DNA of 64,000 nucleotides, taken from positions 18,385 through 82,384 of the forward strand of contig PWTM01000309.1 in the NCBI GenBank assembly GCA_003563855.1. Reading direction: 5' to 3'. The translations under genes were made by a program, and so were the position numbers. Position 1 is the stretch's first letter, and every line of letters begins with the position of its first letter. The stretch comes from PVC group bacterium (GTDB taxonomy: Bacteria > Verrucomicrobiota > Kiritimatiellia > PWTM01). Shown piece by piece: positions 38,975 to 64,000 of this stretch. The notes under the pieces were generated by a model that worked only from the letters and a program-made list of their open reading frames with translations, ran no database searches and was not told where the DNA came from.

Positions 38975-39165
38975 AGGAGCCAGGAGCGAGGAGCGGAGGG
39001 TGGCTTGCCCGTCGTCCTCGTTCTCGTCCTCGTCCTCGAACTTCCCCTGGGCCTTCCCGGTCTACGAGTACGTTCGACGAGTAGGGTCGACGAGTGGGGA
39101 GGGGCCGCACCGGCGTCGGGAGTCCGGCGTCCGGCGTCCCCGGACGGCGCCCCGCGCACGTCGCG
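38975..39165. repeat. composite GC-rich intergenic repeat element, copy b (imperfect GAGGAG/GAGGAC hairpin, tcgacgagtagggtcgacg, G-run, CCGGCGTCGGGAGTCCGGCGTCCGGCGTCC)
   Basis: Sits in the divergent promoter region between the giant esterase gene and the XylR-like regulator. Direct reading. Confidence 0.75.
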
Positions 39166-39202
39166 TTCGCGTGTTCCCCGCGACTGTGCTATAAGTGCCG
39201 CC

Positions 39203-40619: not shown

Positions 40620-40694
40620 TGGAGCGAGCGATGGGATTCGAACCCACGACATCTACCTTGGCAAGGTAGAGCTCTACCACTGAGCTACGCTCGC
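40620..40694 (-). tRNA. tRNA-Gly (anticodon GCC), CCA end encoded
   Basis: Reverse complement is GCGAGCGTAGCTCAGTGGTAGAGCTCTACCTTGCCAAGGTAGATGTCGTGGGTTCGAATCCCATCGCTCGCTCCA. Confidence 0.85.
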
Positions 40695-41746: not shown

Positions 41747-41751
41747 CCGTC

Positions 41752-48237: not shown

Positions 48238-48722
48238 GCCTGGAGCGCCGCGAATTCGCCGGCCCGCCAGCGTTTCCGGCACCGGGCCAGCAGCGGGGGC
48301 GGCGTGAGGCAGACCTCGCCGCTGGCGGCCGAGACCAGCAGTTGCACGGTCTGCCCGGCGGCCGTGGGCACGCCGTCCGCCGCGGTCAACGTGTATTCGA
48401 AATTGAGCCGCGCGCCCTCGCACCAGATCAGCGCGCAGCGAATCGTGAACGCCTCGTCGAGCCGAAGCGGCCGGAAATACTCGACGTGGTAGCGCACGAC
48501 CGGCGCCCGCAGTCCGGCCTCGTAGTAGTCCGCGTAGGACAGCCCGCAGCGGCGACCGAGCTCCGCCGCGCCTTCCTCGAAAAACACCGCGTAGCGCCCG
48601 AACCAGGCGATCCCCATCGGGTCCGCCTCGCCGAACCCGACGCGGCGCGGGAGTTCCACCGCCAGCGGGGCCGGGGCGCCCGGCTCGCGCGGGAAACGTG
48701 CGGAGCGCGCGCGCGGGCTCAC
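48234..48722 (-). CDS. 4HBT/YbgC-type hotdog acyl-(ACP/CoA) thioesterase
   Basis: LAVELPRRVGFGEADPMGIAWFGRYAVFFEEGAAELGRRCG...YHVEYFRPLRLDE. Proposed GTG start at 48722 overlaps the upstream TGA. Confidence 0.65.
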   Translation of the reverse strand: MSPRARSARFPREPGAPAPLAVELPRRVGFGEADPMGIAWFGRYAVFFEEGAAELGRRCGLSYADYYEAGLRAPVVRYHVEYFRPLRLDEAFTIRCALIWCEGARLNFEYTLTAADGVPTAAGQTVQLLVSAASGEVCLTPPPLLARCRKRWRAGEFAALQA

Positions 48723-49108
48723 GGAGCGGCGTCTCCGGCGGACGCGGACACCGCCAGGCGCAGGTCCGCCACGCGCTCCCCGGCGAGCGTCACGCGCACA
48801 CGAAGCGGGGTCGGCCCGGCGCCGTTCGGACCGGGCTCGACGGAGAAATCGAGGACCTCCCCGGCCGACACCGGCCGGTACCACTTCGCCGAGGCGATCT
48901 CCGAGAGTTCACCGGTCCCGCACCCGGCGGCTTCGGCGAGGATCAGCGCCGCACGGATCATGCAGACCCCGGGCAGCACGGGTTGCCCGTCGAAGTGGCC
49001 GCGGAACCCGACGAACCCGGACGGGAAGATGAACCGTCCGCGCACCGCGCCCCCTTCCCGCGCCGTTTCGCGCAGGCACGCCCTGATCTCGCCGTCGAGT
49101 CCGCTCAT
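48719..49108 (-). CDS. 3-hydroxyacyl-ACP dehydratase (FabZ/FabA-like hotdog)
   Basis: MSGLDGEIRACLRETAREGGAVRGRFIFPSGFVGFRGHFDGQPVLPGV... Only the last 129 codons of the 575-aa track ORF are real; the rest is antisense to creD. Confidence 0.7.
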   Translation of the reverse strand: MSGLDGEIRACLRETAREGGAVRGRFIFPSGFVGFRGHFDGQPVLPGVCMIRAALILAEAAGCGTGELSEIASAKWYRPVSAGEVLDFSVEPGPNGAGPTPLRVRVTLAGERVADLRLAVSASAGDAAP

Positions 49109-49330
49109 CGAATGCTGCCCCGCGTCCAGCGACCCTCGCCCTGCGCCGCGCGGGCAGCCACGGCGCCGGCCGGGACTCCCCGAGGCAAGTCGCCGGCGCA
49201 GGTAGGAACGCCGATTCAACATCGCAGAACGGCCCCGCGCTGTCAAACAGCGGCCATCGGGCCCCGATCGCGCGCGGGCTTGCGCGGCGGACGGCGGGCC
49301 TTGTAGTCTCGCGGGCGGAGGTACTTGCCG

Positions 49331-50788
49331 ATGAATGAGACCCCTGCCCAGCCGCCACCGGCCCAGCCGCCACCTGCCCAGCCGCCACCGGTTCCCCCCG
49401 TCAGCTCGGAAGCACGCGCGGCCGCCCGCTGGATTTCCGGCCGGCCGCGCCCGGTGCTGAAGCTCCTCACCATCGGCGGCCTCATCCTGGTCCTGCTGAT
49501 CCCCCTGCAGATGATCCGCGGAGTGCTGACCGAGCGACTCGTCCGCCGGAACGAGGCGGTCGCCGAAATCACGGGAACCTGGGGCGGCGACCAGACGGTG
49601 ATCGGGCCGGTGCTGATGGTGCCGTACCGGTACCCGGTCAAGACGGTGCGCGACCAGACCGTGGACGGGCGCGTCCAGCGGGTCGAGGTCGAGGAAATGG
49701 GCCTGGCGCAGGCCTTCTTCCTTCCGGACCGCGTCGAGATCGCCGGCGATCTCGACCCGCGCGTATTGCACCGCGGCATCTACCGGGCGGTCGTCTACCG
49801 CGGCCGGCTGACGATCGAAGGCGCCTTTGCACGGCCCTCGTTCGAGGACTGGCGGGTTCCGCCCGAGAACGTGCTCTGGGAGGACGCCGCCGTCGGGTTC
49901 GCGATCACGGACCTGCGCGGGGTCGAGGACGCGCTTCAGCTCGACTGGAACGGCCGCGCGGTGCCGCTCGAGCCCGGCAGCCTGGTCCCGGGCTTCAACG
50001 TCGGCGTGACGGCCCGGCTGCGCGAAACGGAGGCGCTGGAGGCCGACGATCTCCCGTTCGCGCTGACCCTGGCGCTCAACGGCAGCAACGGCATCCGGTT
50101 CGCGCCGGTCGGCGCGCGGAATACCGCGCGGTTGACCTCGTCCTGGCCGGACCCGAGCTTCCAGGGCCAGTTCCTGCCCGCCGACCGGACGGTTGGCCCG
50201 GAGGGCTTCGAGGCGCAGTGGGCGCTCTCCTATTACGGGCGCGCCTACCCGCAGCAGTGGACGGTGACGCCGGGCGCCGGCGCGCGCCCGCCGGCGCTGG
50301 GCTCGGCGCTCTTCGGCGTCGACCTCCGGATGCTGGTGGACCAGTACCGGAACGTCGAACGCGCGATCAAGTACGGGATTCTCTTCCTCGTGCTCGTCTT
50401 CACGGGGTTCTTCCTTTTCGAGACCCTCGGCGTGGCACGCGTCCACCCGTTCCAGTATGCGCTGGTGGGGGCGGCGTTGTGCCTCTTCTACCTCGCGTTG
50501 CTGTCCCTCTCGGAGTTCATCCGCTTCGGCGCCGCATACCTGGTCGGCGCCGCGGCGGCCACCGCGATGATCTCGCTCTATTGTGCGAGCGTCCTGCGCG
50601 GGGGCCGGCGCGCGGCGATCGTGGCGGTGGAACTGGCGGCGATTTACGGCTTCCTGTTCGTGCTCCTGCAGCTCCAGGACTACGCGCTGCTGATCGGGAC
50701 CGCGGGCCTCTTCGCCGCGCTCGGCGCCGTCATGTACCTGACGCGCAACGTGAACTGGTACGAGCAGCGGCCCGCGTCCGGCGGGTAG
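49331..50788 (+). CDS. creD: cell-envelope integrity inner-membrane protein CreD
   Basis: MNETPAQPPPAQ...TGTWGGDQTVIGPVLMVPYRY... plus multiple C-terminal TM segments. ATG 49331 with a GGAGGT RBS. Confidence 0.75.
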   Translation: MNETPAQPPPAQPPPAQPPPVPPVSSEARAAARWISGRPRPVLKLLTIGGLILVLLIPLQMIRGVLTERLVRRNEAVAEITGTWGGDQTVIGPVLMVPYRYPVKTVRDQTVDGRVQRVEVEEMGLAQAFFLPDRVEIAGDLDPRVLHRGIYRAVVYRGRLTIEGAFARPSFEDWRVPPENVLWEDAAVGFAITDLRGVEDALQLDWNGRAVPLEPGSLVPGFNVGVTARLRETEALEADDLPFALTLALNGSNGIRFAPVGARNTARLTSSWPDPSFQGQFLPADRTVGPEGFEAQWALSYYGRAYPQQWTVTPGAGARPPALGSALFGVDLRMLVDQYRNVERAIKYGILFLVLVFTGFFLFETLGVARVHPFQYALVGAALCLFYLALLSLSEFIRFGAAYLVGAAAATAMISLYCASVLRGGRRAAIVAVELAAIYGFLFVLLQLQDYALLIGTAGLFAALGAVMYLTRNVNWYEQRPASGG

Positions 50789-52560: not shown

Positions 52561-52584
52561 GCGGCGACGCGTCTCCGCTCTGCC

Positions 52585-52655
52585 CCGCCGCGTCGCGACA
52601 CGGCGGAAAGCGAAAGCGGCCTCGCGAGGCCGCACTCCAAAGGCGCGCGCGGCGC
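52585..52655. repeat. ~65-bp palindrome-containing repeat (core GCGGCCTCGCGAGGCCGC), copy 1
   Basis: ccgccgcgtcgcgacacggcggaaagcgaaagcggcctcgcgaggccgcactccaaaggcgcgc. Near-identical copy at 59904-59975. Confidence 0.8.
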
Positions 52656-52785: not shown

Positions 52786-55464
52786 ATGCGCGACGAGATC
52801 CCCTGGACGGACAGCGACGCCGACGCGGAGGAGACCCGCGACTGGCAGGAATCGCTCGACGAGGTCATCGCGCGCAGCGGACCGCGCCGCGCCGCGCGGC
52901 TGCTGAGCGAGCTTCACCTGCGGGCGCACCAGCAGGGGGTCCGGCTCCCGTTCACCGCCAACACGCCCTACATCAACAGCATCCCCGCCGGCGAACAGCC
53001 CCCCTACCCCGGCAATCGCGAACTCGAACGCCGGATCAAGAGCCTGGTGCGCTGGAACGCGATGGCCATGGTCGTGCGGGCCAACCGCGAGGAGGAGGGC
53101 ATCGGCGGCCATATCTCGACCTACGCCTCCGCCGCCACGCTCTACGAGGTCGGGTTCAACCACTTCTTCCGGGCGCCGACCGACGGGCACCCGGGCGACC
53201 TGGTGTACTTCCAGGGCCATGCCTCGCCGGGCATCTACGCGCGGGCCTTCCTCGAGGGCCGGCTTTCGGCCGAACGCATCGGCAACTTCCGCCACGAACT
53301 GCACGACACGCCCGGGCTCCCCTCCTATCCGCACCCCTGGCTGATGCCGGACTTCTGGCAGTTCCCCACCGTCTCGATGGGGCTCGGCCCGCTGGCCGCC
53401 ATCTACCACGCCCGGTTCGTGAAGTACCTGCACGACCGCGGACTGCGCCCGCCCTGCGACCAGAAGATCTGGGCCTTTCTCGGCGACGGGGAGACGGACG
53501 AGCCCGAATCGCTCGGGGCGATCACGCTGGCCGCGCGCGAGCGGCTCGACAACCTGGTCTTCGTCATCAACTGCAACCTCCAGCGGCTGGACGGGCCGGT
53601 CCGGGGGAACGGCAAGATTATCCAGGAGCTCGAAGCGGCCTTCCGCGGCGCGGGCTGGAACGTGATCAAGGTGGTCTGGGGCAGCGACTGGGATCCGCTG
53701 CTCGACGCCGACCGCGACGGCGCGCTCGTGCGGCGCATGGCCGAGGTCGTCGACGGCGAATACCAGAAGTACACCGTGGCCGGCGGGGCCTACATCCGCG
53801 AGCGCTTCTTCGGCGCCGACCCGCGGCTGCTCGACCGGGTCCGGCATCTCTCCGACGAGGACCTCGCCCGGCTGCGGCGCGGCGGGCACGACCCCGAGAA
53901 GGTCTACGCCGCCTACGCGGCCGCCGTCCGCCACGAAGGCGCGCCGACCGTGATCCTGGCCAAAACGATCAAGGGCTACGGCCTCGGCGAGAGCGGCGAA
54001 GGCAAGAACATCACGCACCAGCAGAAGAAGCTCAACGAGGAGGAATTGCGCGAGTTCCGCTCCCGGTTCGGCATCCCGATCTCCGACGAGGATGTCGGCC
54101 GCCTGCCCTTCTACCGCCCGCCCGAGGACAGCCCGGAGATGGCCTACCTGCGCGCGCGCCGCGAGGCGCTCGGCGGCTTCCTGCCCACCCGCCGGCCGGT
54201 GTCCGTGCAGCTCCGTCTCCCGGAAGCGTCGGTCTACGCCGAGTTCCTGAAGGGCAGCGCGCGCGAGGTGTCCACGACGATGGTGTTCGTCCGGCTCCTC
54301 GGCAAGCTGCTGCGCGAACCGGAGCTCGGACCGCGCATCGTGCCGATCGTCCCCGACGAGGCGCGCACCTTCGGCATGGAGGCGCTCTTCCGCCAATGCG
54401 GGATTTACGCCCACAGCGGCCAGCTCTACGATCCGGTCGACTCGGACAGCCTGCTCTACTACCGCGAGGCGCGCGACGGGCAGATCCTCGAGGAAGGCAT
54501 CACGGAAGCCGGCAGCCTGGCGTCCTTCATCGCTGCCGGAACCGCCTACGCGAACCACGGGATTCCGACGATCCCCTTCTACATCTACTACTCGATGTTC
54601 GGTTTCCAGCGCGCGGGCGACCTGGTCTGGATGGCCGGCGATTCGCGGTGCCGCGGGTTCCTCGTCGGCGGAACCGCCGGCCGCACCACGCTCGCGGGCG
54701 AAGGCCTCCAGCACCAGGACGGGAACAGCCACCTGCTGGCGCTGCCGGTGCCGAACCTGCGCGCCTACGATCCCGCGTTCGCCTTCGAGCTGGCGGTCAT
54801 CGTCGAGGACGGACTCCGCCGCATGGGCCGCGAGAACGAGGACGTGTTCTACTACCTGACCGTCGAGAACGAGAACTACGCGCAGCCGGCCATGCCGGAC
54901 GGCGTGCGCGAGGGCATCCTGCGCGGCCTCTACCGGTTCCGCGCGGCGGAGCACGCCGGCGGCGACGCGCCGCGGGTGCGCCTGGTCGGCAGCGGCGCGA
55001 TCCTCAACGAGGCGCTCAAGGCGCAGGCGCTGCTCGCCGCCGAGCACGGCATTGCCGCGGATGTCTGGTCGGCCACCAGCTACAAGAGCCTGCTGGCCGA
55101 CGCGCTGGCGGCGGAACGCTGGAACCTGCGGAACCCCGGCAGGAAGCCGCGCGTGCCGCATGTCGCCGCCGAGCTGGCCGCGGGCACCGGTCCGGTCGTC
55201 GCCGCCTCGGACTACCTCAAGGCGCTGCCGGCCTCGCTCGCGCGCTGGATTCCCGGTCCGCTCGCGCCGCTCGGCACGGACGGCTACGGGCGCAGCGATG
55301 GGCGCCCGGCGTTGCGCCGGCACTTCGAGGTCGATGCGGCAGCGATCGCCGCCGCCGCGCTCGGCGCGCTCGCCCGCGAGGGTACGCTCGACGCCGCCAA
55401 GGCCCGCAAGGCCATCCGCGCCCTCGGCATCGACCCCGAGCACCCCGACCCCGCCCTGGCTTGA
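52786..55464 (+). CDS. aceE: pyruvate dehydrogenase E1 component (homodimeric type)
   Basis: 892 aa: YPGNRELERRIKSLVRWNAMAMVVRANREEEGIGGHISTYASAATLYEV...; GGGAGG RBS. Confidence 0.9.
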   Translation: MRDEIPWTDSDADAEETRDWQESLDEVIARSGPRRAARLLSELHLRAHQQGVRLPFTANTPYINSIPAGEQPPYPGNRELERRIKSLVRWNAMAMVVRANREEEGIGGHISTYASAATLYEVGFNHFFRAPTDGHPGDLVYFQGHASPGIYARAFLEGRLSAERIGNFRHELHDTPGLPSYPHPWLMPDFWQFPTVSMGLGPLAAIYHARFVKYLHDRGLRPPCDQKIWAFLGDGETDEPESLGAITLAARERLDNLVFVINCNLQRLDGPVRGNGKIIQELEAAFRGAGWNVIKVVWGSDWDPLLDADRDGALVRRMAEVVDGEYQKYTVAGGAYIRERFFGADPRLLDRVRHLSDEDLARLRRGGHDPEKVYAAYAAAVRHEGAPTVILAKTIKGYGLGESGEGKNITHQQKKLNEEELREFRSRFGIPISDEDVGRLPFYRPPEDSPEMAYLRARREALGGFLPTRRPVSVQLRLPEASVYAEFLKGSAREVSTTMVFVRLLGKLLREPELGPRIVPIVPDEARTFGMEALFRQCGIYAHSGQLYDPVDSDSLLYYREARDGQILEEGITEAGSLASFIAAGTAYANHGIPTIPFYIYYSMFGFQRAGDLVWMAGDSRCRGFLVGGTAGRTTLAGEGLQHQDGNSHLLALPVPNLRAYDPAFAFELAVIVEDGLRRMGRENEDVFYYLTVENENYAQPAMPDGVREGILRGLYRFRAAEHAGGDAPRVRLVGSGAILNEALKAQALLAAEHGIAADVWSATSYKSLLADALAAERWNLRNPGRKPRVPHVAAELAAGTGPVVAASDYLKALPASLARWIPGPLAPLGTDGYGRSDGRPALRRHFEVDAAAIAAAALGALAREGTLDAAKARKAIRALGIDPEHPDPALA

Positions 55465-55527: not shown

Positions 55528-56889
55528 GTGTGCATGGACGTCAAGATTCCCGAACTGGGCGAGAATATCGAGGGTGGCGATGTTGTAGCGGTGCGCGTTG
55601 CCGAAGGGGACACGGTCGAGGCCGAGCAGCCGTTGCTCGAGCTCGAAACCGGCAAGGCGACGATCGAGCTGCCCTCCCCGTCCGGCGGCCGCATAAGCGC
55701 CATCCGCGTGAAGGCCGGGGACACCGTGACCGTCGGCCAGGTCGTCATGGAACTGGACACCGGCGCGAAGGCCGAGGCCGCGCCGCCGAAGGAAGAAGCG
55801 GACGCTCCCGCCCCTAAGCCGGAACCGAAACCGGCCGAACCCGAGGCGCCACCGGAATCGGCGCCCGCCGAACCCGAACCCGAGTCGGACGCGAAGCCCG
55901 ACTCGACGGAGCCTGCCGCACCGAGCCCGGCGCCGGAGCCCGCGCGCGAGCCCGCGCCGCCGCTGCCGAAGCCGCCGGCCGTGCCCGTCGCCGCCGCCCC
56001 CTCCGTGCGCCGGTTCGCCCGCGAGATCGGCGTGGACATCGAGCAGGTCGTCGGGCACGGCAAGGGCGGCCGCATCTCGATCGACGACGTCAAACAGTTC
56101 GCCCGCCAGGCCGCGACCGGCCGGGCCGTTCGCGGCCACTGCGCGCTCGAGGCCGAGCCGCTGCCCGACTTCTCCCGCTGGGGTCCGGTCCGGCGCGAGA
56201 CGATGTCGAAGATCCGCACCGTCACCGCCGAGCACCTCGGCCGGGCCTGGGCGCTGATCCCGCACGTCACGCAGCACGGCAAGGCAGACGTGACGGAACT
56301 CGAGACGCTGCGCAAGCGCCTCGCCCCGCGCGCCGAGGCCGCGGGGGCGAAGCTGACGCTGACCGCGATCCTCGTCCGCATCGTCGCCGCCGCCCTGCGC
56401 GTCCACCCGAAGTTCAACGCCAGCGTCGACCTCCCGGGCCGCGCGATCGTCTTCAAGGACTACGTCCATATCGGCATCGCCGTCGATACCGAGCGCGGCC
56501 TGCTCGTGCCGGTCGTGCGCGACGCGGACCGCAAGAACATCGTGCAGATCGCCGCCGAGCTCGGCCGCCTGGCCGAGGCCGCGCGCGCGGGCAAGCTCGC
56601 ACCCGACGATCTCCAGGGCGGCACGTTCACGGTGACGAATATCGGCGCGATCGGCGGCTCGTTCTTCACGCCGATCATCAACGCGCCGGAAGTCGCGATC
56701 CTCGGCGTCGGACGGGCCGAGCGCGAGCTTCGGCTGCAGCCCGGCAGCGATACGCCGGAGCCTCGCCTGATGCTCCCCCTCTCGCTCTCCTACGACCACC
56801 GGCTGATCGACGGCGCCGACGGCGCCCGGTTCCTGCGCTGGCTCGTCGACGCGGTGGCCGAGCCGATGCTGATCTCGCTGGAGGGGTGA
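55528..56889 (+). CDS. aceF: dihydrolipoyllysine-residue acetyltransferase (PDH E2)
   Basis: Lipoyl domain ELETGKATIELPSP; E3-binding SVRRFAREIGVDIEQVVGHGKGGRISIDDV; catalytic SYDHRLIDGADGARFL. The start may be at MDVK 55534. Confidence 0.9.
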   Translation: MCMDVKIPELGENIEGGDVVAVRVAEGDTVEAEQPLLELETGKATIELPSPSGGRISAIRVKAGDTVTVGQVVMELDTGAKAEAAPPKEEADAPAPKPEPKPAEPEAPPESAPAEPEPESDAKPDSTEPAAPSPAPEPAREPAPPLPKPPAVPVAAAPSVRRFAREIGVDIEQVVGHGKGGRISIDDVKQFARQAATGRAVRGHCALEAEPLPDFSRWGPVRRETMSKIRTVTAEHLGRAWALIPHVTQHGKADVTELETLRKRLAPRAEAAGAKLTLTAILVRIVAAALRVHPKFNASVDLPGRAIVFKDYVHIGIAVDTERGLLVPVVRDADRKNIVQIAAELGRLAEAARAGKLAPDDLQGGTFTVTNIGAIGGSFFTPIINAPEVAILGVGRAERELRLQPGSDTPEPRLMLPLSLSYDHRLIDGADGARFLRWLVDAVAEPMLISLEG

Positions 56890-57920
56890 ACGTGCGCCCG
56901 GCCGAGATCCCCATGCGGCGGGTGGGGCCTGTGCGGCTCGCCGGCCCGGAGGTCGAGGACGAGGTCATGCTCCCGCTGGCCACGTTCGAGACCCCGCTCT
57001 GGCCGTCCGTCGCCCGCGGCGCGCGCGTGACGCGCGAGGCCGGCGGCATACGGGCGGTCGTCGTCGACGAGCGCATGACCCGCTCGATCCTGCTCGAAGC
57101 GCCCGACGCCGTCGCGGCGGTCGAGGCGGGTCGCGCGATCGAGGCGCAGCGGGAGGAACTCGCCGCCGTGGTCGCGGCGACGGGTCGGTTCGTGCGCCTG
57201 CTGGAACTCCGCGCGCAGTACGCCGGCCCGCTGCTCTTCCTCCGCGTTGCCGTCGCCACGGGCGACGCGGCCGGCCACAACATGGCGACCAAGGCCGCGC
57301 AGGCCGTGCTCGACCGGATCGCCGAAACGCGACCCGCGCTGCGCCCGGTCTCGGTCTCCGGCAACCTCTGCACCGACAAGAAGGTCTCGGCCGTCAACGG
57401 CCTCCTCGGCCGCGGCCGCCACGTGGTCGCCGAGGCGCGGATCCCCGCCGACCTCTGCCGGCGACGGCTGCGCGTGGCGCCCGGGGATCTCGTCGGCCTC
57501 CACGTGCGCAAGAACCTGGTCGGCTCCATCCTGGCCGGCAGCCTGCGGAGCGCGAACGCGCATGTGGCGAACATGCTGCTGGCCTTCTACCTCGCCACCG
57601 GCCAGGACGGCGCGAACGTCGTCGAAGGCTCACAGGCGATCACGCACGCCGACGTGTCAGACGGCGACCTCGCCTTTTCCGTTACCCTGCCCAACCTCGT
57701 ACTCGGCACCGTCGGTGCGGGGAAGGACCTGCCCTTCGTCGCGGAGAACCTCGAGGCGCTCGGTTGCCGCGCCCCGCGTCCGCCCGGCGCCAATGCGCGG
57801 CGGCTGGCCGTGCTCGCCGCGGCCGCGGTGCTCTGCGGCGAGCTCTCGCTGCTCGCCGCACTGGCAAACCCCGGCGAATTGGTGCGCGCGCACCTGCGGC
57901 TCGAGCGGAACGCCGGGTGA
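56886..57920 (+). CDS. HMG-CoA reductase class-I catalytic-domain homologue, N-terminally truncated
   Basis: DAAGHNM (cf. DAMGMNM), VSGNLCTDKKVSAVNGLLGRGRHVVAEARIP (cf. [30 protein letters not shown]), ATGQDGANVVEGS and GTVGAG (cf. GTVGGG). GTG start overlaps the aceF TGA. Confidence 0.7.
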   Translation: MNVRPAEIPMRRVGPVRLAGPEVEDEVMLPLATFETPLWPSVARGARVTREAGGIRAVVVDERMTRSILLEAPDAVAAVEAGRAIEAQREELAAVVAATGRFVRLLELRAQYAGPLLFLRVAVATGDAAGHNMATKAAQAVLDRIAETRPALRPVSVSGNLCTDKKVSAVNGLLGRGRHVVAEARIPADLCRRRLRVAPGDLVGLHVRKNLVGSILAGSLRSANAHVANMLLAFYLATGQDGANVVEGSQAITHADVSDGDLAFSVTLPNLVLGTVGAGKDLPFVAENLEALGCRAPRPPGANARRLAVLAAAAVLCGELSLLAALANPGELVRAHLRLERNAG

Positions 57921-57935
57921 ACCGCGGCTGCAGGT

Positions 57936-58236
57936 AGAGCGCAGCGGCGATGGCGCGTTCGTCCCCCCCGGCCGAGCGGCCCGGCCCGTGCCACGGGCGA
58001 CTCCACAGGCATCGGCAAAGCGGCGTCGCCGGGCTTCGCCCTTTGCCGCCGCACTCCACATGGCTGCGATGCTGCACGGACACGGCCCTCCACATTATGG
58101 AGTGCGCCGGCAGAGCGCAGCGGCGACGGCGCTTTCGCCTCTCCCGGCCGGGCGACCCGGCCCGTGCCACGGGCGACTCCACAGGCATCGGCAAAGCGGC
58201 GTCGCCGGGCTTCGCCCTCTGCCGCCGCACTCCACA
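57936..58236. repeat. tandem duplication, two ~125-bp copies with 177-bp period (57936-58060 and 58113-58236)
   Basis: Both copies read agagcgcagcggcga.ggcgc.ttcg...ggcccggcccgtgccacgggcgactccacaggcatcggcaaagcggcgtcgccgggcttcgccct.tgccgccgcactccaca at ~90% identity. Confidence 0.85.
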
Positions 58237-58369
58237 GCGCCGCTCCGCGGCGCGCAGCAACCCGGCGCGCGCCGGGCGTGCCCAGGGTGCACCAAGGCCG
58301 GCGTGCAAGACGCCGCCGGCTGTGGTATAGGGGCGGCGGGCGGTGTGGCTGCCCTGCAGGGAGAGTGAC

Positions 58370-58879
58370 ATGAGCAAGCGCATACTGGTGGCGTATGCCT
58401 CGAAGTACGGGGCGACGGAGGCGATCGCCGAGCGCATCGCGAAGACCCTGGAGCAGGCCGGCCTGCCGGTCGACTGCCTCGCCGTTCAGCGTGCCGGCGA
58501 GCTGGCCCCTTACGGGGCGGTGGTGCTCGGCAGCGGCGTCTACGCGGGCCAGTGGCGCAAGGAGGCCGCGACGTTCCTCAAAGCCAACGCCGAGGCGCTC
58601 GCGGAGCGTCCGGTCTGGCTCTTCTCGAGCGGCCCCACCGGGAAGGGCGAGCCCTCGGCCCTGCTCCAGGGCTGGCGCTTCCCGAAGAAGCTACAGCCGC
58701 TCGCCGATCGGATCGGGCCGCGCGACTTCGCCGTCTTCCACGGCGCCCTCGACGCCGCGAAGATGAACCGGCTCGAACGCATGATGATCAAGGCGGTGAA
58801 GGCCCCCGCGGGCGACTTCCGGGACTGGGACGCCATCGAGGCCTGGGCGCGGGGCATCGCCGAGGCGCTGAAGGCGTAG
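58370..58879 (+). CDS. flavodoxin-family protein (HemG/flavodoxin_5-like)
   Basis: MSKRILVAYASKYGATEAIAERIAKTLEQAG...VVLGSGVYAGQW...; GGGAGAG RBS. Confidence 0.7.
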   Translation: MSKRILVAYASKYGATEAIAERIAKTLEQAGLPVDCLAVQRAGELAPYGAVVLGSGVYAGQWRKEAATFLKANAEALAERPVWLFSSGPTGKGEPSALLQGWRFPKKLQPLADRIGPRDFAVFHGALDAAKMNRLERMMIKAVKAPAGDFRDWDAIEAWARGIAEALKA

Positions 58880-58892: not shown

Positions 58893-58975
58893 AGCGTCGT
58901 CCTCGTGCTCGTCCTCGTCCTCGTTCTTCGACATCCGAGAACGAGAACGAGAACGAGGACGAGGACGATCGGAAA
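58893..58975. terminator. long imperfect GAGGAC/GAGAAC hairpin just downstream of the flavodoxin gene (terminator-like; member of the GC-rich repeat family)
   Basis: tcgtcctcgtgctcgtcctcgtcctcgttcttcgacatccgagaacgagaacgagaacgaggacgaggacga. Confidence 0.5.
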
Positions 58976-59511: not shown

Positions 59512-59903
59512 TCCCCGGCAACCGGGGCAAGGATGGACAGAATCATTGGGGACAGAATCGGGGACAGAGCGACGGGAGCCCGCCGCCCCTCGATGCTGAC
59601 CTGCTTCCAAGGCCTGGAAGTCTGGGTGCCCACGGGTTCCAAGGTTTGGAGGGGCACGCCCCCCGCCGGGGGCTGAGCCCTGGCCCACAGCACCGTCGAC
59701 CGATCCTCCCGTTTCGCGAAAAGGGGGATGGGATCGGCGTGAGGCGGGCGCCTGGGGCCGATGGGTGGACGCCGGACGCCCGACGCCCGACGCCGCGCGA
59801 CCGTGGCGAGCGAGGGGCGGCGGTGCGGAACCGGCACGGGCGAGAGCCCTCCCGCGCCGCGTCGCGGCGCCTTGGAGTGCGGCGACGTGTCGCCGCTTTG
59901 TTC

Positions 59904-59975
59904 CGCCGCGTCGCGACGCGGCGAGAAGCGAAGACGGCCTCGCGAGGCCGCACTCCGAAAGGCGCGCTACGCGCG
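59904..59975. repeat. ~65-bp palindrome-containing repeat, copy 2
   Basis: ccgccgcgtcgcgacgcggcgagaagcgaagacggcctcgcgaggccgcactccgaaaggcgcgc. Confidence 0.8.
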
Positions 59976-60178: not shown

Positions 60179-60565
60179 TCAGTCCCCAAGGCTGCCGAGC
60201 TTCTCTTTCAGCGTCCGCAGCAGGGTCTGGGGCTGGATCGGCTTCTGGAAGACGCCGTCGAGGCCGAGGTCGACGTAGCTGGTCGTCTGGCTGAGCTGGT
60301 CGCCCGCCGAGCTGAGCATGTAGATCGGGGCCTTGTTGCCGAGCAGCCGCAGCTCCTTGACGAAGCTCGTCCCGGAATCGACCTCCTCCATCATGAGGTC
60401 GACGATGACGAGGTCGGGCTTCGTCTCCTTGTAGACGCGCAGCCCCTGCTCGGCGCTGTGCGCCTCCTCCATGATGTAGCCGTTGGACTCCAGGATCACG
60501 CGAACCGAATCCAGGAAGTCGGGGTCATCGTCGATGTACAGGATTACGTACTTGCCGTCGCGCAT
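60179..60565 (-). CDS. single-domain response regulator (CheY-like receiver)
   Basis: ILYIDDDPDFLDSVRVILESNGY...DLVIVDLMMEE...; GGAGGAA RBS. Confidence 0.75.
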   Translation of the reverse strand: MRDGKYVILYIDDDPDFLDSVRVILESNGYIMEEAHSAEQGLRVYKETKPDLVIVDLMMEEVDSGTSFVKELRLLGNKAPIYMLSSAGDQLSQTTSYVDLGLDGVFQKPIQPQTLLRTLKEKLGSLGD

Positions 60566-61077
60566 GGTCGTTCCTCCGTTGGGCCCGTCCGGTTCATCCA
60601 GGGTTCGAGCGCCCGCACCGCCTCGGACAGCGTCGCCGCGCGGAGCGCCGGCGTCAAGGCCCGGAGCGCGGCCTTGAGGTGGGCGGAGGCCCGTTCTCCC
60701 AGCCGCTCGCCGAACCCGTCGAAATCGTACCCCCGCAGCCCGATCGCCCAGGCGGGCGGCGCGGCGCCGAAGAGGTCGCGCGCGAGCGCCATGACCGCGC
60801 CGGAGCTCACGCTGTGCGTGCTGAATCCCGCCCCTTCGTCGGTCGGCGCCACGGGGTAGAGCGCGAAGGGCGCCGGACCGCGCACCGCCGCGTCGGCGAA
60901 GAGCACGAGCCCGTGCCCGGCGACCGCCGCCGCGTGCTCGACCGTCAACTGGTAATCCGCGTCCACCGCCACGCCCTCAAGGCCCATCCCTTCGACCGCC
61001 GCCGCGAAGGCCGGTCCGAGCCCGTCGTCCAGGCGGCCCGGGTTGCCGTAGCCGATCAGCAGCAGCGGCGGGTTCAT
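60544..61077 (-). CDS. [NiFe]-hydrogenase maturation endopeptidase (HoxW/HycI-like)
   Basis: MNPPLLLIGYGNPGRLDDGLGPAF... The ATG at 61077 overlaps the large-subunit TGA (ATGA). The upstream part of the 997-aa track ORF is not real. Confidence 0.7.
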   Translation of the reverse strand: MNPPLLLIGYGNPGRLDDGLGPAFAAAVEGMGLEGVAVDADYQLTVEHAAAVAGHGLVLFADAAVRGPAPFALYPVAPTDEGAGFSTHSVSSGAVMALARDLFGAAPPAWAIGLRGYDFDGFGERLGERASAHLKAALRALTPALRAATLSEAVRALEPWMNRTGPTEERPCATAST

Positions 61078-62540
61078 GCCTCCGCGGAAAGCGAAACGCC
61101 CTTGGCGCCGCGGCCGACCCGCTGGCCTTCGGCGTCGACGACCTCGACGACCAGCGGCATGCGGCCCATCGCGTGCGTCGCGCAGGAGAGGCAGGGATCG
61201 TAGGCGCGGATCGCCACCTCGATCCGGTTCAGCAGCCCTTCGGTCACCTCCACGCCTTCGAGATGGTCGCGGGCCACCTTCTCGACCGCCCGGTTCATCG
61301 GCGTGTTGTTGTTCGTCGTCGATACGATGAGGTTGCAGCGCACGATCTGGTCGCGGTCGTTCACCTCGTAATGGTGGAAGAGCGTCCCGCGCGGCGCCTC
61401 GATCAGGCCGATGCCGACGGGCCGGCGCTCGCCGGTCACGACCAGGTCCTCGCCCTGCAGGTCCGGATCGTTGAGCAGGTCGCGGATCTTCTCCGTGGCG
61501 TGCAGCATCTCGATCATCCGCGCCCAGTGGTAGGCCATCGTCACCTGGACCGGCTTGCCGCCGCCGAGTTCCATGAATGCGGCGCGGGCCTTCTCCGCCT
61601 CCGGCGTGTCGATTGCGTCGCAGATGTTCACGCGCGCCAGCGGTCCGACGCGGTACCAGCCGCGGTCCGGCCCCAGCGAGCGGATGAACGGGAACTTCAT
61701 GTACGACCAGGGCTTCACCTCTTCCTCGATGTACTCGAGGTATTTTCGGTAGTCGACCTGGTCGAAGATCGCCTTCCCCTCGGCGTCCACCGCGCGCAGG
61801 TTCCCGTGGTAGAGATCCATCGCGCCGTCCTCGCGCACAAGGCCCAGGTGGTTCGAGACGAACGACCCGAAGTCGGCCAGGTCGGCCAGGTGCTCGGCCG
61901 TGTAGTCGGCGGCGATCTTCAGCGCGCCGCGCGACCACTCGAGCATCTGCTCGATGTCCTTGAGGAACCCGTCGCGCTCGGCGATCGAGAGGTTCTTGTT
62001 CCCCCCGCCGGGGATCGCGCCCGTGCCGTGGATCTTCTTGCCGGCCGTCGCCTTGATGATCTCCTGGCCGTACTTGCGCAGCATCACGCCCTGCACCGCA
62101 AGGTCCGGGAACTTGCGCGCCACGCCGACGACGTTGCGCTCGACCGGGTCGGCGTCGAACCCGAAGAGCAGGTCCGGCGAGACGAGGTGGAAGAAGTGCA
62201 GCGCGTGCGACTGGAGCGTCTGCCCGTAATGCATGAGCCGGCGCATCTTCTCGGCGGTCGGCGTCAGGCGCTCCCCGCCGACGATCCAGTCCATCGCCTT
62301 GGCCGCCGCGAGGTGGTGGCTCACGGGGCAGATGCCGCAGAGGCGCTGCACGAGCACGGGCGCCTCCCAGAAGGGGCGGCCCTGCACGAAGCGCTCGAAG
62401 CCGCGGAACTCCACGATGTGAAGCCGGGCCTGGCGGACCTTGCGTTCTTCGTCGAGCAGGATGGTCACCTTCCCGTGCCCCTCCACGCGGGTAACGGGCT
62501 CGATGACGATCTTGCGGGTCTGCGGTGCGGCGGTGGCCAT
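61074..62540 (-). CDS. [NiFe] hydrogenase large subunit, group 3 (bidirectional/NAD(P)-linked type)
   Basis: N-terminal RVEGHG and RLCGICPVSH; C-terminal DPCLSCATH nickel-binding motifs. Confidence 0.85.
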   Translation of the reverse strand: MATAAPQTRKIVIEPVTRVEGHGKVTILLDEERKVRQARLHIVEFRGFERFVQGRPFWEAPVLVQRLCGICPVSHHLAAAKAMDWIVGGERLTPTAEKMRRLMHYGQTLQSHALHFFHLVSPDLLFGFDADPVERNVVGVARKFPDLAVQGVMLRKYGQEIIKATAGKKIHGTGAIPGGGNKNLSIAERDGFLKDIEQMLEWSRGALKIAADYTAEHLADLADFGSFVSNHLGLVREDGAMDLYHGNLRAVDAEGKAIFDQVDYRKYLEYIEEEVKPWSYMKFPFIRSLGPDRGWYRVGPLARVNICDAIDTPEAEKARAAFMELGGGKPVQVTMAYHWARMIEMLHATEKIRDLLNDPDLQGEDLVVTGERRPVGIGLIEAPRGTLFHHYEVNDRDQIVRCNLIVSTTNNNTPMNRAVEKVARDHLEGVEVTEGLLNRIEVAIRAYDPCLSCATHAMGRMPLVVEVVDAEGQRVGRGAKGVSLSAEA

Positions 62541-62555
62541 GGGGGCTCTCCTCGC

Positions 62556-63104
62556 TCAGTCGTACTTGATCAGCTCGTAGGGCAGTTCCAGCGGCTTGCC
62601 GGTCAGCAGCGCCACGAGGGCCTGCCAGATCGCGTCCGCCGGCGGCGGACAGCCCTGCAGGTGGTAGTCGACCTTGACCACCTCGTGGCACGGGTAGACC
62701 TTGTCGAGCAGCAGCGGAAGGTCGGGGTCGTTCGGGATGTGGCCGGCCGGGTTGTGCACGGTCGGCCCCTTCAGGTAGGCCTCGTCGAGGCATTCCTTGA
62801 GCGGAACGGCGTTGCGCATCGCGGGGATGCCGCCGCAGATGGCGCATTCGCCAACGGAGACAAGCACGTCGCAGTGCTTGCGGAAGAGCTGCAGCACGCG
62901 GACGTTCTCCTCGTTGCAGCAGCCGCCTTCGACGAGCCCGACGGCGCAGCGGCCGGTGAACTCCTTCAGGTCGTTGATCGGCGACTTGTCGAACTCGATC
63001 AGCTCGATGAGCTCGAAGATCCGCTCGTCGATATCGAGGATCGACATGTGGCAGCCGAAGCAGCCGGCGAGCGATGCGGTCGCGACGCGGGGTTTGGCGG
63101 CCAT
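62556..63104 (-). CDS. [NiFe] hydrogenase small subunit, group 3 (HoxY-like)
   Basis: LAGCFGCHMS...GGCCNEEN...GECAICGG cysteine clusters. Confidence 0.8.
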   Translation of the reverse strand: MAAKPRVATASLAGCFGCHMSILDIDERIFELIELIEFDKSPINDLKEFTGRCAVGLVEGGCCNEENVRVLQLFRKHCDVLVSVGECAICGGIPAMRNAVPLKECLDEAYLKGPTVHNPAGHIPNDPDLPLLLDKVYPCHEVVKVDYHLQGCPPPADAIWQALVALLTGKPLELPYELIKYD

Positions 63105-63106
63105 GA

Positions 63107-63841
63107 TCAGTCCTCCTCTCCGGCGCCGGCGGCCGCGGCGGCCTTCGCCTCGATGTCCGATCCGATCGGATCGCGGTCGTAGGGTCGCTGGCCGATCGGG
63201 ACGCGGTAGCCTTCGCGCTTGCGCAGGATCGCCCCGACCGGGCAGACCTCCACCGCCCGGTCGGCGGCTTCGATGTCCGTGCCCCCCAACCCGTCCGCGG
63301 CGTTGAAGGCGATCCGCTTCTCCGGGCCGCGGCCGACGAACTGGAAGGCCGAGCGTCCATCGAGATCGCGCGAGGCCCGCACGCAGCGGCCGCAGAGAAT
63401 GCAGCGGTTGCGGTCGACCATGACGTCGGGATGCGAGGCGTCCACCTCCCGGACGGGGAACTGGTAGGGGTAGCGGGGCGAGAGCATGCCGAAGCGGTAC
63501 CCGAGGGCCTGGAGCTCGCAGCCGCCGCTGCGCTCACAGAACATGCAGAAGTGGTTGCCCTCGACGAAGAGCATCTCGATCAGCCGCTTCCGGTGCTCCT
63601 TCAGCTCGTCGGTCGCCGTGTCCACGACCATGCCGGGCGTGGCGGGCGTCGTGCAGGCCGACTGCGGGCGGCCGTTGACGAGCACCGTGCAGACCCGGCA
63701 GGAGCCGTGCGGCACGAGGTCCTTGTGCCCGCAGAGCCGCGGGATGTAGACCCCGGCAGCGTCGGCGGCCTGGAGGATCGTCCACCCCGGCTCGGCCTTC
63801 ACGGCCGTGTTGTCGATCGTCAGCGTGAACGTCTTGCTCAT
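63107..63841 (-). CDS. hydrogenase diaphorase iron-sulfur subunit (HoxU-like, NuoG-N-terminal type)
   Basis: 2Fe-2S CGHKDLVPHGSCRVC; 4Fe-4S CMFCERSGGCELQ and CILCGRCVRASRD. Confidence 0.75.
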   Translation of the reverse strand: MSKTFTLTIDNTAVKAEPGWTILQAADAAGVYIPRLCGHKDLVPHGSCRVCTVLVNGRPQSACTTPATPGMVVDTATDELKEHRKRLIEMLFVEGNHFCMFCERSGGCELQALGYRFGMLSPRYPYQFPVREVDASHPDVMVDRNRCILCGRCVRASRDLDGRSAFQFVGRGPEKRIAFNAADGLGGTDIEAADRAVEVCPVGAILRKREGYRVPIGQRPYDRDPIGSDIEAKAAAAAGAGEED

Positions 63842-64000
63842 CCTTCCCCCTCCCCGCCCGTGTACACCACCGATGCGCGGCCCGCCAGCCGCTCCGACTC
63901 CGCGAGCGCGCCGCGGATGTCGAAGGCGGGCAGGAACGCGTCGCCGCGGTCCGGCCCGAGCCGGGACTCGTAGAGGTCGCGGAACGCCTGCAGGCTCGAG
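63838..64000 (-). CDS. upstream hydrogenase-operon gene, C-terminal fragment (HoxF-like diaphorase subunit assumed from position only)
   Basis: In-frame reading ends ...RGDAFLPAFDIRGALAESERLAGRASVVYTGGEGEG*. Its TGA overlaps the hoxU-like ATG (ATGA). Confidence 0.35.
   Translation of the reverse strand, partial: SSLQAFRDLYESRLGPDRGDAFLPAFDIRGALAESERLAGRASVVYTGGEGEG

What the first reader, a model, noticed from the sequence alone, without database searches (positions are those of the whole stretch)
56886..57920. Truncated class-I HMG-CoA-reductase-like gene translationally coupled to pyruvate dehydrogenase E1/E2, with no E3 gene following
The 344-aa product aligns, by motif memory, with the C-terminal two-thirds of eukaryotic/archaeal HMGR: DAAGHN, SGNLCTDKK...GRGRHVVAEARIP, GQDGANVVEGS, GTVGAG, and a terminal His region. 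The catalytic-domain N-terminal ~100 residues are missing. The Glu of the ENVIG motif has no in-frame equivalent upstream, because upstream is aceF and the start is a GTG overlapping the aceF TGA. The gene is either a non-canonical HMGR-family enzyme fed directly by PDH-derived acetyl-CoA, or a repurposed paralogue. lpdA is not in the operon.
Basis: partly seen in the sequence, partly recalled or inferred. Interest (0 to 1): 0.65.

Follow-up and report, generated by a model that had tools for sequence, protein, structure and literature searches.

The report
Short bacterial HMG-CoA reductase beside PDH
The gene is this bacterium's mevalonate-pathway HMG-CoA reductase, one of a large uncharacterised bacterial clade that naturally lacks the enzyme's N-terminal segment and one "catalytic" glutamate; its position behind the pyruvate dehydrogenase genes is a local rearrangement, not a new pathway.

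Summary
The ORF is real and is a class-I-type HMG-CoA reductase (HMGR) homologue (Pfam PF00368, 4e-81; model TM 0.90-0.93 to human HMGR). It lacks the first ~60-90 residues of archaeal enzymes, including the ENVIG glutamate. This is not a local truncation. Hundreds of 335-360-aa homologues in Kiritimatiellia, Verrucomicrobiota, Lentisphaerae, Legionellales/Coxiellaceae MAGs and Endozoicomonadaceae share the short N-terminus.

Of 80 related genome loci, 70 carry mevalonate-pathway or IDI genes beside the gene, and none carries aceE/aceF. A 73%-identical orthologue heads a complete HMGR-IDI2-HMGS-MVK-PMK-MDD operon. The same MAG as the window encodes HMG-CoA synthase plus mevalonate kinase on another contig. 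The aceF-HMGR junction is shared only with one 79%-identical relative.

The HMG-binding residues (Ser684, Lys735, Leu862 equivalents) are kept, which excludes the fatty-acyl-CoA reductase FcrA. Lys, Asp and His catalytic residues are kept. The clade replaces DAMGMN with DAxGHN and Asn870 with Glu. No E3 gene is in the window, but E2 has an E3-binding domain.

Verdict: an ordinary pathway role for an atypical, biochemically uncharacterised HMGR variant. The PDH-linked reading is not supported.

The parts
52786..55464 (+). aceE, pyruvate dehydrogenase E1 (homodimeric type), 892 aa
   Evidence: TIGR00759 1390.9 bits (cutoff 859.9); PDH_E1_M and Transketolase_N domains
55528..56889 (+). aceF, dihydrolipoyl acetyltransferase E2, 453 aa, with one lipoyl domain, an E3-binding domain and a catalytic domain; stop codon TGA at 56887-56889
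   Evidence: PF00198 6e-79, PF00364, PF02817 (E3_binding); TIGR01348 458 bits
56880..56884 (+). GGAGG Shine-Dalgarno-like motif inside the end of aceF, 7 nt upstream of the GTG at 56892
   Evidence: read from the sequence; the orthologue L087 has GGAAGG, then 6 nt (which include the aceF stop codon TAG), then ATG
56886..57920 (+). Short class-I-type HMG-CoA reductase gene (longest ORF 344 aa; probable start GTG 56892, giving 342 aa)
   Evidence: PF00368 4.4e-81; 100% identical to P0001 of MAG GCA_003567235.1; model pLDDT 94 and TM 0.90-0.93 to human HMGR
57264..57281 (+). DAAGHN (res 127-132), the counterpart of the NADPH-site motif DAMGMN; His131 replaces Met657
   Evidence: His in all 145 short-clade-type sequences, Met in 119 of 119 canonical ones; Met655/Met657 are listed as NADPH-site residues in PMC7503714
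57357..57383 (+). SGNLCTDKK cis-loop (res 158-166): equivalents of Ser684, Asp690, catalytic Lys691 (Lys165) and Lys692
   Evidence: columns conserved in 137-138 of 138 short and 119 of 119 canonical sequences
57600..57632 (+). GQDGANVVEGS (res 239-249): catalytic Asp767 equivalent (Asp241), plus clade-specific Asn244 (canonical Gln) and Gly248 (canonical Ser)
57873..57911 (+). C-terminal flap helix GELVRAHLRLERN (res 330-342): Leu862 equivalent (Leu332), catalytic His866 equivalent (His336), clade-specific Glu340 in place of Asn870
   Evidence: Asn870/Arg871 are listed as NADPH-contacting residues in PMC7503714
57930..58254 (+). Two 149-nt direct repeat copies (57930-58078 and 58106-58254, 88% identical) filling the 422-nt spacer after the HMGR gene; probably the end of the transcription unit
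58343..58879 (+). Flavodoxin_5-domain gene (178 aa), also downstream of HMGR in the 79%-identical relative
   Evidence: PF12724 2.5e-28; 87% identical fragment in L087

Best explanation
The gene encodes the organism's HMG-CoA reductase for the mevalonate route to isoprenoids. It reduces HMG-CoA, made by an HMG-CoA synthase encoded elsewhere in the genome, to mevalonate, which the adjacent-to-HMGS mevalonate kinase then uses. NADPH is the likely cofactor.

It belongs to a large bacterial clade of class-I-type HMGRs that are naturally about 340-355 aa long. They keep the complete L and S domains, the cis-loop Lys, the Asp, the flap-helix His and all HMG-binding residues. They lack the N-domain and the first strand of the ENVIGx3(I/L)P dimer element, including the glutamate usually counted as catalytic.

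Inferred, not shown: catalysis proceeds with Lys165 as the proton donor, and/or the clade-specific His131 (DAAGHN) or Glu340 (flap helix) takes over the Glu's role.

In this lineage and one close relative, the HMGR gene has left the mevalonate operon and has been inserted 2 nt behind aceF. It is therefore probably co-transcribed, and possibly translationally coupled, with PDH E1/E2. That co-expresses acetyl-CoA supply with the committed step of isoprenoid synthesis, but it is not a physical or mechanistic link to PDH.
For: Family and fold:
- PF00368 at 273 bits.
- Best solved relatives are plant, human and archaeal class I HMGR, E=1e-56 to 1e-63.
- AlphaFold model pLDDT 94.2, TM 0.90-0.93, rmsd 1.3-1.5 A to the human catalytic portion.

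Residues:
- Equivalents of Lys691, Asp767, His866, Asn755, Lys735, Ser684, Asp690, Lys692, Leu853, Leu862 and Arg627 are present in the window protein. They are conserved in at least 125 of the 138 clade members (lowest Arg627, 125 of 138; the others 132-138).

The short form is native:
- More than 120 clusters of 335-390 aa at 60-79% identity.
- Short representatives extend down to ~40% identity, ranking above the eukaryotic and archaeal hits.
- Longest possible ORFs have a median of 355 aa across 57 loci.

Pathway context:
- 70 of 80 related genome loci have HMGS, MVK, PMK, MDD or IDI within 8 kb, and 37 have HMGS+MVK+MDD (profiles).
- A 73%-identical orthologue lies in HMGR-IDI2-HMGS-MVK-PMK-MDD.
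- The same MAG (GCA_003567235.1, contig PWZY01000015.1) and the same run (SRR490155) encode HMGS (73% identical to that operon's) and MVK (70%), with matching GC3 of 0.94-0.96 against 0.92.
- Cultured Kiritimatiella glycovorans is reported to make isoprenoids via mevalonate with Proteobacteria-like enzymes (PMC5148204).

Junction: aceF-HMGR-flavodoxin is also present in a 79%-identical relative.
Against: - No member of this clade has been assayed. PMC11948995 states that no bacterial class I HMGR has been characterised.
- The Glu559 equivalent, invariant in 119 of 119 canonical sequences, is absent. The score is below NCBIfam's equivalog cutoff (280.7 against 441.8).
- PMK, MDD, IDI and thiolase were not located in this MAG, and the presence or absence of the MEP pathway is unknown.
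- HMGS/MVK are linked to the window only through MAG binning and co-occurrence in samples.
- The proposed compensating residues form a single clade-level change, so their co-occurrence with loss of the Glu is one evolutionary event, not statistical proof.
Confidence: 0.78

Rival explanations
1. A repurposed HMGR paralogue acting on another thioester, functionally tied to PDH. Possible substrates would be a fatty or short acyl-CoA as in FcrA, or an acetyl thioester produced by E2.
For: Tight juxtaposition with aceF, conserved in two species. The canonical Glu is missing and the cofactor pocket is remodelled. HMGR homologues are known to have been repurposed as the fatty acyl-CoA reductase FcrA, said to make up 57-77% of bacterial 'class I HMGR' annotations (PMC11948995).
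Against: FcrA keeps Glu559 and changes Ser684 to Glu, Lys735 to a small residue and Leu862 to Trp. The window protein has Ser158, Lys209 and Leu332, as does almost all of its clade. Orthologues are embedded in mevalonate operons as the only HMGR. 0 of 80 loci are PDH-linked. HMGS + MVK are present in the same MAG.
Confidence: 0.08
2. A catalytically dead or weakened HMGR-like protein (a pseudoenzyme or regulatory subunit), because the ENVIG Glu and part of the dimer interface are gone.
For: Glu559 is counted among the four catalytic residues and ENVIGx3(I/L)P forms a dimer-interface beta-sheet (PMC7503714). Both are lost.
Against: All other catalytic and substrate-binding residues are conserved at 90-100% across a clade spanning at least three phyla and down to ~40% identity. 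It is the only HMGR in dozens of otherwise complete mevalonate operons. A QM/MM study cited in PMC7503714 assigns protonation to Lys691 with a neutral Glu559, so the Glu may be dispensable.
Confidence: 0.05
3. A split enzyme: the missing N-terminal segment with the Glu is provided in trans by a separate small protein.
For: The boundary falls exactly at a structural element (the ENVIG strand), and small unannotated ORFs are common near these operons.
Against: An HMM of the canonical N-terminal ~100 residues (116 sequences; controls E=1e-12 to 1e-48) gave no hit at E<=10 in all six frames of the window and 97 loci, 23,440 segments in total.
Confidence: 0.03
4. A catabolic (mevalonate-oxidising) HMGR working towards HMG-CoA and acetyl-CoA, like the class II enzyme of Pseudomonas mevalonii, and therefore grouped with central acetyl-CoA metabolism.
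For: Placement in a central-carbon operon rather than with biosynthetic genes.
Against: No HMG-CoA lyase or mevalonate transporter in the window. Relatives sit with biosynthetic HMGS, MVK, PMK, MDD and IDI. Arg627, listed among the NADPH-site residues in PMC7503714, is conserved; that it marks NADPH rather than NADH use is from general knowledge of class I HMGR, not tested here.
Confidence: 0.04

Closest known systems
Class I HMG-CoA reductase (EC 1.1.1.34) of archaea and eukaryotes, e.g. human catalytic portion 1DQA and Methanothermococcus thermolithotrophicus 6HR7
   Same: Same fold (TM 0.90-0.93). Same cis-loop SGNxC(T/S)DKK with the catalytic Lys, same GQD Asp, same flap-helix His, same HMG-binding Ser/Asp/Lys/Lys/Asn/Leu. 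38-48% identity. Same pathway context in relatives.
   Different: Lacks the N-domain (including the CoA-stacking Tyr479 region) and the ENVIG strand with Glu559. DAMGMN becomes DAAGHN. Gln770 becomes Asn, Ser774 becomes Gly, the Thr of GGGT becomes Lys, and Asn870 becomes Glu. Scores below the TIGR00533 equivalog cutoff.
FcrA, HMGR-derived fatty acyl-CoA reductase (PMC11948995)
   Same: A bacterial class-I-type HMGR homologue annotated as HMGR in databases; a four-electron thioester reduction on the same scaffold.
   Different: FcrA retains Glu559 but replaces Ser684, Lys735 and Leu862, often carries N-terminal Lad or ACP domains, and occurs in genomes without the mevalonate pathway. The window protein is the opposite on every one of these points.
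Class II HMG-CoA reductases (P. mevalonii, Gram-positive cocci, Borrelia; also L. pneumophila Q5ZTV6 as treated in preprint PMC13370337)
   Same: Same reaction, and a bacterial mevalonate-operon context.
   Different: A different sequence class. No class II model hit at E<=0.01. No L. pneumophila protein appears among the top 120 relatives of a 'Legionella sp.' MAG member of the short clade, so those kinetics cannot be transferred.
aceE-aceF(-lpdA) pyruvate dehydrogenase operons
   Same: Canonical homodimeric E1, and an E2 with lipoyl, E3-binding and catalytic domains.
   Different: The third position is occupied by HMGR instead of lpdA. E3 must be encoded elsewhere, since E2 keeps its E3-binding domain.

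Membership tests
HMG-CoA reductase superfamily (Pfam PF00368) | Domain match above the gathering threshold | tested here: met
   273.2 bits against a cutoff of 27; profile positions 42-368 of 368
Class I HMGR, NADPH (NCBIfam TIGR00533 equivalog) | Score above the curated equivalog cutoff with full-length coverage | tested here: not met
   280.7 bits against a cutoff of 441.8; only profile positions 71-402 of 402 are matched
Class I HMGR | Catalytic Lys691 in the cis-loop, Asp767 in GQD, and His866 on the C-terminal helix | tested here: met
   Lys165, Asp241 and His336; columns conserved in 136-138 of 138 clade members and 118-119 of 119 canonical sequences
Class I HMGR | Catalytic Glu559 within ENVIGx3(I/L)P | tested here: not met
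   The column is absent in the window protein and in 128 of 138 clade members, against Glu in 119 of 119 canonical sequences. No conserved acidic residue in the N-terminal tails: 8% at the homologous -8 position.
Class I HMGR | HMG-binding residues Ser684, Asp690, Lys692, Lys735, Asn755, Leu853 | tested here: met
   Ser158, Asp164, Lys166, Lys209 and Asn224 by residue number; the Leu853-equivalent column reads Leu in the window protein. All six are conserved clade-wide.
Class I HMGR | NADPH-site motif DAMGMN and Asn870/Arg871 | tested here: inconclusive
   Asp, Gly, Asn and Arg871 are kept. Met655 becomes Ala, Met657 becomes His and Asn870 becomes Glu, and these changes are clade-specific. The effect on the cofactor or on catalysis is unknown.
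Class I HMGR | L + S domain fold | tested here: met
   Model pLDDT 94.2, TM 0.90-0.93, rmsd 1.3-1.5 A to 1HWI, 1DQA and 7ULI
Class I HMGR | Operates with the other mevalonate-pathway enzymes | tested here: met
   HMGS + MVK in the same MAG. 70 of 80 related loci have mevalonate or IDI neighbours. Full operon at 73% identity. PMK, MDD and IDI of this MAG were not located.
Class I HMGR | [quoted passage not shown] | not testable with these tools
   Needs an enzyme assay. No clade member is reported as characterised (PMC11948995).
FcrA fatty acyl-CoA reductase | Ser684 to Glu, Lys735 to a small residue, Leu862 to Trp or another bulky residue, with Glu559 retained | tested here: not met
   Ser158, Lys209 and Leu332 are retained and the Glu is absent. 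Criteria are from PMC11948995; its 'Lys795' corresponds to Lys735 by its own numbering offset.
FcrA fatty acyl-CoA reductase | Occurs in genomes or loci without the mevalonate pathway | tested here: not met
Class II HMGR | Match to class II models or sequences | tested here: not met
   Only the class I models TIGR00533 and TIGR00920 hit at E<=0.01. All PDB sequence hits at E<=1e-3 are class I.
PDH complex operon (aceE-aceF-lpdA) | E3 (dihydrolipoamide dehydrogenase) encoded with E1/E2 | tested here: not met
   No E3 in the Pfam-annotated gene calls for +/-10 kb, in the selected ORFs scanned elsewhere, or by tblastn probe of the whole window (best E=0.47). E2 keeps an E3-binding domain.

The most novel reading that the evidence does not exclude
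The short clade is a natural 'Glu-less' class I HMGR. The general-acid and pKa-tuning role assigned to Glu559 would be carried by Lys165 alone, or by the clade-specific His131 (Met657 position, nicotinamide pocket) and/or Glu340 (Asn870 position, flap helix). The dimer interface would be rebuilt without the ENVIG strand. If so, it is a ready-made natural experiment on the disputed roles of Glu559 and Lys691 in HMGR catalysis. It may also have distinct cofactor and statin-binding properties. In addition, the aceEF-hmgR operon would be a lineage-specific device that co-regulates acetyl-CoA supply with isoprenoid commitment.
Probability: 0.3. Interest if true: 0.6.

Novelty: new variant of a known kind. 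Interest (0 to 1): 0.4.

Why it matters
For this window, the result turns an apparently exotic "PDH-coupled truncated HMGR" into an ordinary pathway enzyme in an unusual chromosomal position.

At clade level it flags something worth an experiment. A very widespread bacterial HMGR type appears to be the only HMGR of many mevalonate operons in PVC bacteria and in Legionellales/Coxiellaceae-like Gammaproteobacteria. It lacks a residue that textbooks list as catalytic, together with part of the dimerisation motif, and it has a remodelled NADPH pocket. According to a 2025 paper, no bacterial class I HMGR has been characterised.

Characterising one member would test the Glu559-versus-Lys691 proton-donor question. 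It would define cofactor and statin sensitivity for a group that includes relatives of intracellular pathogens. It would also improve annotation rules that currently have to separate true HMGR from FcrA among bacterial "class I HMGR" genes.

Tried and rejected
1. Conserved PDH linkage. tblastn of the window's aceE and aceF against 80 related genome loci gave 0 hits. Only the 79%-identical relative shares the junction, and the 75%- and 73%-identical relatives do not.

2. Other mevalonate genes in the window. tblastn with HMGS, MVK, PMK, MDD, IDI1 and IDI2 found none.

3. lpdA in the window. None was found.

4. Transfer of biochemistry from L. pneumophila HMGR (Q5ZTV6, preprint PMC13370337). A search seeded with a 'Legionella sp.' MAG member returned no L. 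pneumophila protein in the top 120. That enzyme is probably not in this clade, so this was rejected as evidence.

5. FcrA identity. Rejected on the three diagnostic residues and on context.

6. Split gene or trans-supplied N-terminus. No hit. A first attempt used a faulty filter that left only 2 sequences and was redone.

7. Frameshift or assembly artefact. Rejected because the identical gene occurs in three independent assemblies and the short length is family-wide.

8. A conserved substitute Glu in the N-terminal tail. None.

9. Literature on a 'class III' or short bacterial class I HMGR, or on ENVIG-less enzymes. Nothing was found in the searchable library. The library does not hold most subscription papers, for example Gophna et al. 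2006.

10. Three-dimensional distance of His131 and Glu340 from the substrate. This could not be computed, because the tools return no coordinates and no multimer model.
Full report
**1. The observation**

The window has an ORF at 56886-57920 (+) of 344 aa, starting at a GTG that overlaps the TGA of the preceding gene (GTGA). The preceding genes are a homodimeric-type PDH E1 and an E2.
- E1: 52786-55464; TIGR00759 at 1391 bits against a cutoff of 860.
- E2: 55528-56889; one lipoyl domain, an E3-binding domain and the acyltransferase domain.

Profile searches place the protein firmly in the HMG-CoA reductase family. PF00368 scores 4.4e-81 but matches only profile positions 42-368 of 368. TIGR00533 (class I, NADPH) matches only positions 71-402 of 402, at 280.7 bits, below the equivalog cutoff of 441.8.

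Against solved structures the best sequence matches are Arabidopsis, human and Methanothermococcus class I enzymes (E=1e-56 to 1e-63). Query residues 6-340 align with residues 93-426 of the archaeal chain. The N-terminal shortening is therefore real and amounts to about 60-90 residues.

The more likely initiation codon is the GTG at 56892, giving the 342-aa product annotated in NCBI.
- The GGAGG at 56880-56884 is 7 nt from 56892 and only 1 nt from 56886.
- The closest orthologue starts at an ATG 2 nt after its aceF stop.

The identical protein is found in three independent assemblies, so there is no frameshift artefact.

**2. The short form is a family, not an accident**

The word-indexed search returned more than 120 clusters at 60-79% identity, almost all 335-390 aa long. 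Where named, they come from Kiritimatiellia and Verrucomicrobia.

The exhaustive search of 50%-identity representatives shows short proteins whose alignment starts at residue ~5-30, with identity down to ~40%. These rank above the eukaryotic proteins (~600-1400 aa) and archaeal proteins (~400-416 aa, alignment starting at ~60-80).

In the species-representative genome collection, 248 stretches encode a relative. The best 80 come from Kiritimatiellia, Lentisphaerae, Verrucomicrobiota, KSB1, many Coxiellaceae/Legionellales/Gammaproteobacteria MAGs, and a cultured Parendozoicomonas. The longest possible ORFs at these loci have a median of 355 aa, so a longer N-terminus is not available.

**3. Active-site anatomy**

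I aligned 265 sequences: the window protein, the close family and the diverse representatives.

In 119 canonical sequences, the Glu and Gly of ENVIG and both Met of DAMGMN are invariant.

In 138 short-clade sequences:
- The Glu column is a gap in 128 sequences and a non-conserved residue in the rest.
- The second Met is His. This column was part of my definition of the clade, but all 7 additional sequences with longer called N-termini also have His and no Glu.
- The first Met is Ala or Ser.
- The N-terminal tails are short (median ~11 residues before the conserved (I/V)P) and carry no conserved acidic residue: 8% at the position homologous to Glu559.

Everything else is kept in the window protein and in at least 125 of the 138 clade members (Arg627 125; the others 132-138):
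- Ser684, Asp690, Lys691, Lys692, Lys735, Asn755, Asp767, Leu853, Leu862, His866 and Arg627.
- In the window protein these include Ser158, Asp164, Lys165, Lys166, Lys209, Asn224, Asp241, Leu332 and His336.

Five columns separate the clade from canonical enzymes at 90% or more on both sides:
- Met657 to His131
- Gln770 to Asn244
- Ser774 to Gly248
- Thr of GGGT to Lys280
- Asn870 to Glu340

Met655, Met657, Asn870 and Arg871 are listed as NADPH-site residues in a structural review. The same review describes ENVIGx3(I/L)P as a dimer-interface beta-sheet. It also reports the debate over whether Glu559 or Lys691 is the proton donor (PMC7503714).

An AlphaFold2 model built on a 40-sequence family alignment is confident (pLDDT 94.2, pTM 0.92). 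It superposes on the human catalytic portion at TM 0.90-0.93 and rmsd 1.3-1.5 A over ~330 columns. The L and S domains are therefore complete.

**4. Genomic context decides the function**

None of the 80 related genome loci has aceE or aceF within 8 kb. Instead:
- 70 of 80 have at least one of HMG-CoA synthase, mevalonate kinase, phosphomevalonate kinase, diphosphomevalonate decarboxylase or IPP isomerase.
- 37 have HMGS + MVK + MDD.
- The gammaproteobacterial loci show HMGR-HMGS-MVK-PMK-MDD with IDI alongside.

A 73%-identical orthologue from a 115-kb contig heads HMGR-IDI2-HMGS-MVK-PMK-MDD. A 75%-identical one is solitary among unrelated genes.

The 79%-identical one has the same aceF (88% identical)-HMGR-flavodoxin-like arrangement as the window. 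The PDH junction is thus a recent, lineage-restricted relocation.

The window itself has no other mevalonate or MEP genes.

HMG-CoA synthase followed by mevalonate kinase is encoded on contig PWZY01000015.1 of the same MAG (GCA_003567235.1) and in the same run (SRR490155). Their divergence from the complete-operon lineage is 73% and 70%, against 73% for HMGR. Their GC3 matches as well.

The cultured Kiritimatiella glycovorans is reported to synthesise isoprenoids via mevalonate with enzymes related to those of Proteobacteria (PMC5148204). That fits the phyletic pattern seen here. I did not verify that its HMGR is of the short type.

**5. Rivals**

FcrA. A 2025 paper showed that many bacterial "class I HMGR" genes encode FcrA, which reduces fatty acyl-CoA and not HMG-CoA. 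FcrA keeps all four catalytic residues but replaces Ser684, Lys735 (printed as Lys795) and Leu862, and it occurs without mevalonate genes (PMC11948995). The window protein and its clade are the opposite on every criterion, so FcrA is rejected. One sequence in my set, P0261, retains the ENYIG Glu and has Gln at the Met657 position. By my own reading of its sequence, it also has Trp at position 862 and Ser at position 735, which is FcrA-like. That reading was not computed.

Split enzyme. This was tested with an HMM of the canonical N-terminal segment against all six frames of the window and 97 loci. There were no hits at E<=10, and the controls scored 1e-12 to 1e-48.

Pseudoenzyme. This is unlikely given the near-invariance of the remaining catalytic and binding residues across phyla, and its position as the only HMGR in many operons.

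Catabolic role. This has no support from context.

**6. What is and is not shown**

Shown:
- family membership at superfamily and fold level;
- loss of the Glu and the N-terminal segment as a clade trait;
- retention of the HMG-binding and other catalytic residues;
- mevalonate-operon context of orthologues;
- HMGS + MVK in the same MAG;
- the restricted distribution of the PDH junction.

Inferred:
- that the protein is an active HMGR;
- that it uses NADPH (from conserved Arg627);
- that it is co-transcribed with aceEF (2-nt spacing, no room for a terminator; one search found no promoter-like site);
- that His131, Glu340 or Lys165 cover the role of Glu559.

The co-occurrence of Glu loss with the His and Glu gains is a single clade-level event, so it is suggestive only.

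**7. Known or new**

Databases already call these proteins HMG-CoA reductase. The mevalonate pathway in Kiritimatiella is published. In the searchable literature I found no description of a short, ENVIG-less bacterial class I HMGR. One paper states that no bacterial class I HMGR has been characterised. The biochemistry reported for L. pneumophila Q5ZTV6 (PMC13370337) probably concerns a different class, because no L. pneumophila protein appears near the short clade.

I therefore classify the gene as a new variant of a known kind. Its role is ordinary and its active-site solution is atypical and untested. The headline feature of the original finding, coupling to PDH without E3, is incidental. 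E2 retains its E3-binding domain, so E3 is simply encoded elsewhere.

**Verdict**

- Observation: confirmed.
- Interest: 0.4.

Noticed in passing
window 57930-58078 and 58106-58254; window 52561-52641 and 59879-59959: Intergenic repeat families. Two 149-nt copies (88% identical) lie directly downstream of the HMGR gene. An 81-nt element (86% identical) lies between deoC and aceE and again near 59.9 kb. The elements share a ~32-nt module in inverted orientation and contain GC-rich palindromes (GCGGCGACGCGTCGCCGC). They look like REP- or MITE-like elements flanking the aceE-aceF-HMGR unit.
   Followed up: partly
window 40787-49200 (- strand): A lipid or aryl-polyene-like biosynthetic cluster: LpxL-type acyltransferase, GT2/DUF2062 glycosyltransferase, two B12-binding radical SAM proteins, a ketoacyl synthase, then a 4HBT thioesterase and an ApeI-like protein.
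   Followed up: no
window 60544-64000 (- strand): NAD(P)-linked bidirectional [NiFe] hydrogenase genes (HoxH-like large subunit, Oxidored_q6 small subunit, 2Fe-2S/4Fe-4S diaphorase subunits, probable maturation protease), with a response-regulator gene at 60179-60565.
   Followed up: no
window 33757-39372 (-): An ORF of 1871 aa for a surface-type protein with bacterial TSP3, fn3, PKD, Listeria-Bacteroides repeat and SASA esterase-like segments.
   Followed up: no
window 49325-50788 (+): A CreD-family inner-membrane protein with an N-terminal PPPAQ x3 repeat.
   Followed up: no
window 58903-58968: A 25-nt inverted repeat (92% complementary, 16-nt loop) made of GAC/GAG-type triplets, just after the flavodoxin-like gene. 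It is possibly a terminator hairpin.
   Followed up: no
protein P0121 (487 aa): A short-clade HMGR fused to an N-terminal ~140-residue domain carrying a CX5R(S) motif (LCSGNYYRS), typical of low-molecular-weight phosphatase/ArsC-like proteins. This hints at regulation of this HMGR type in some lineages.
   Followed up: no
protein P0256 (357 aa): A short HMGR that lacks the N-domain but still has CENIKG and DAMGMN. It is a possible evolutionary intermediate between canonical enzymes and the Glu-less clade.
   Followed up: partly
loci L090-L093 and L094-L097: In several PVC lineages the mevalonate genes are dispersed. Examples are IDI2-HMGS-MVK without HMGR, PMK or MDD, and HMGS-MVK followed by CbiA-like and URO-D genes in the window's own MAG. 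Operon break-up is therefore common in this group.
   Followed up: partly
window 1-30500 (- strand): A conserved ribosomal-protein/secY/map/EF-G/rpoC/rpoB/L1/EF-Tu cluster with three tRNA genes (28915-28988, 30503-30575, 40623-40694). There is no rRNA in the window.
   Followed up: no
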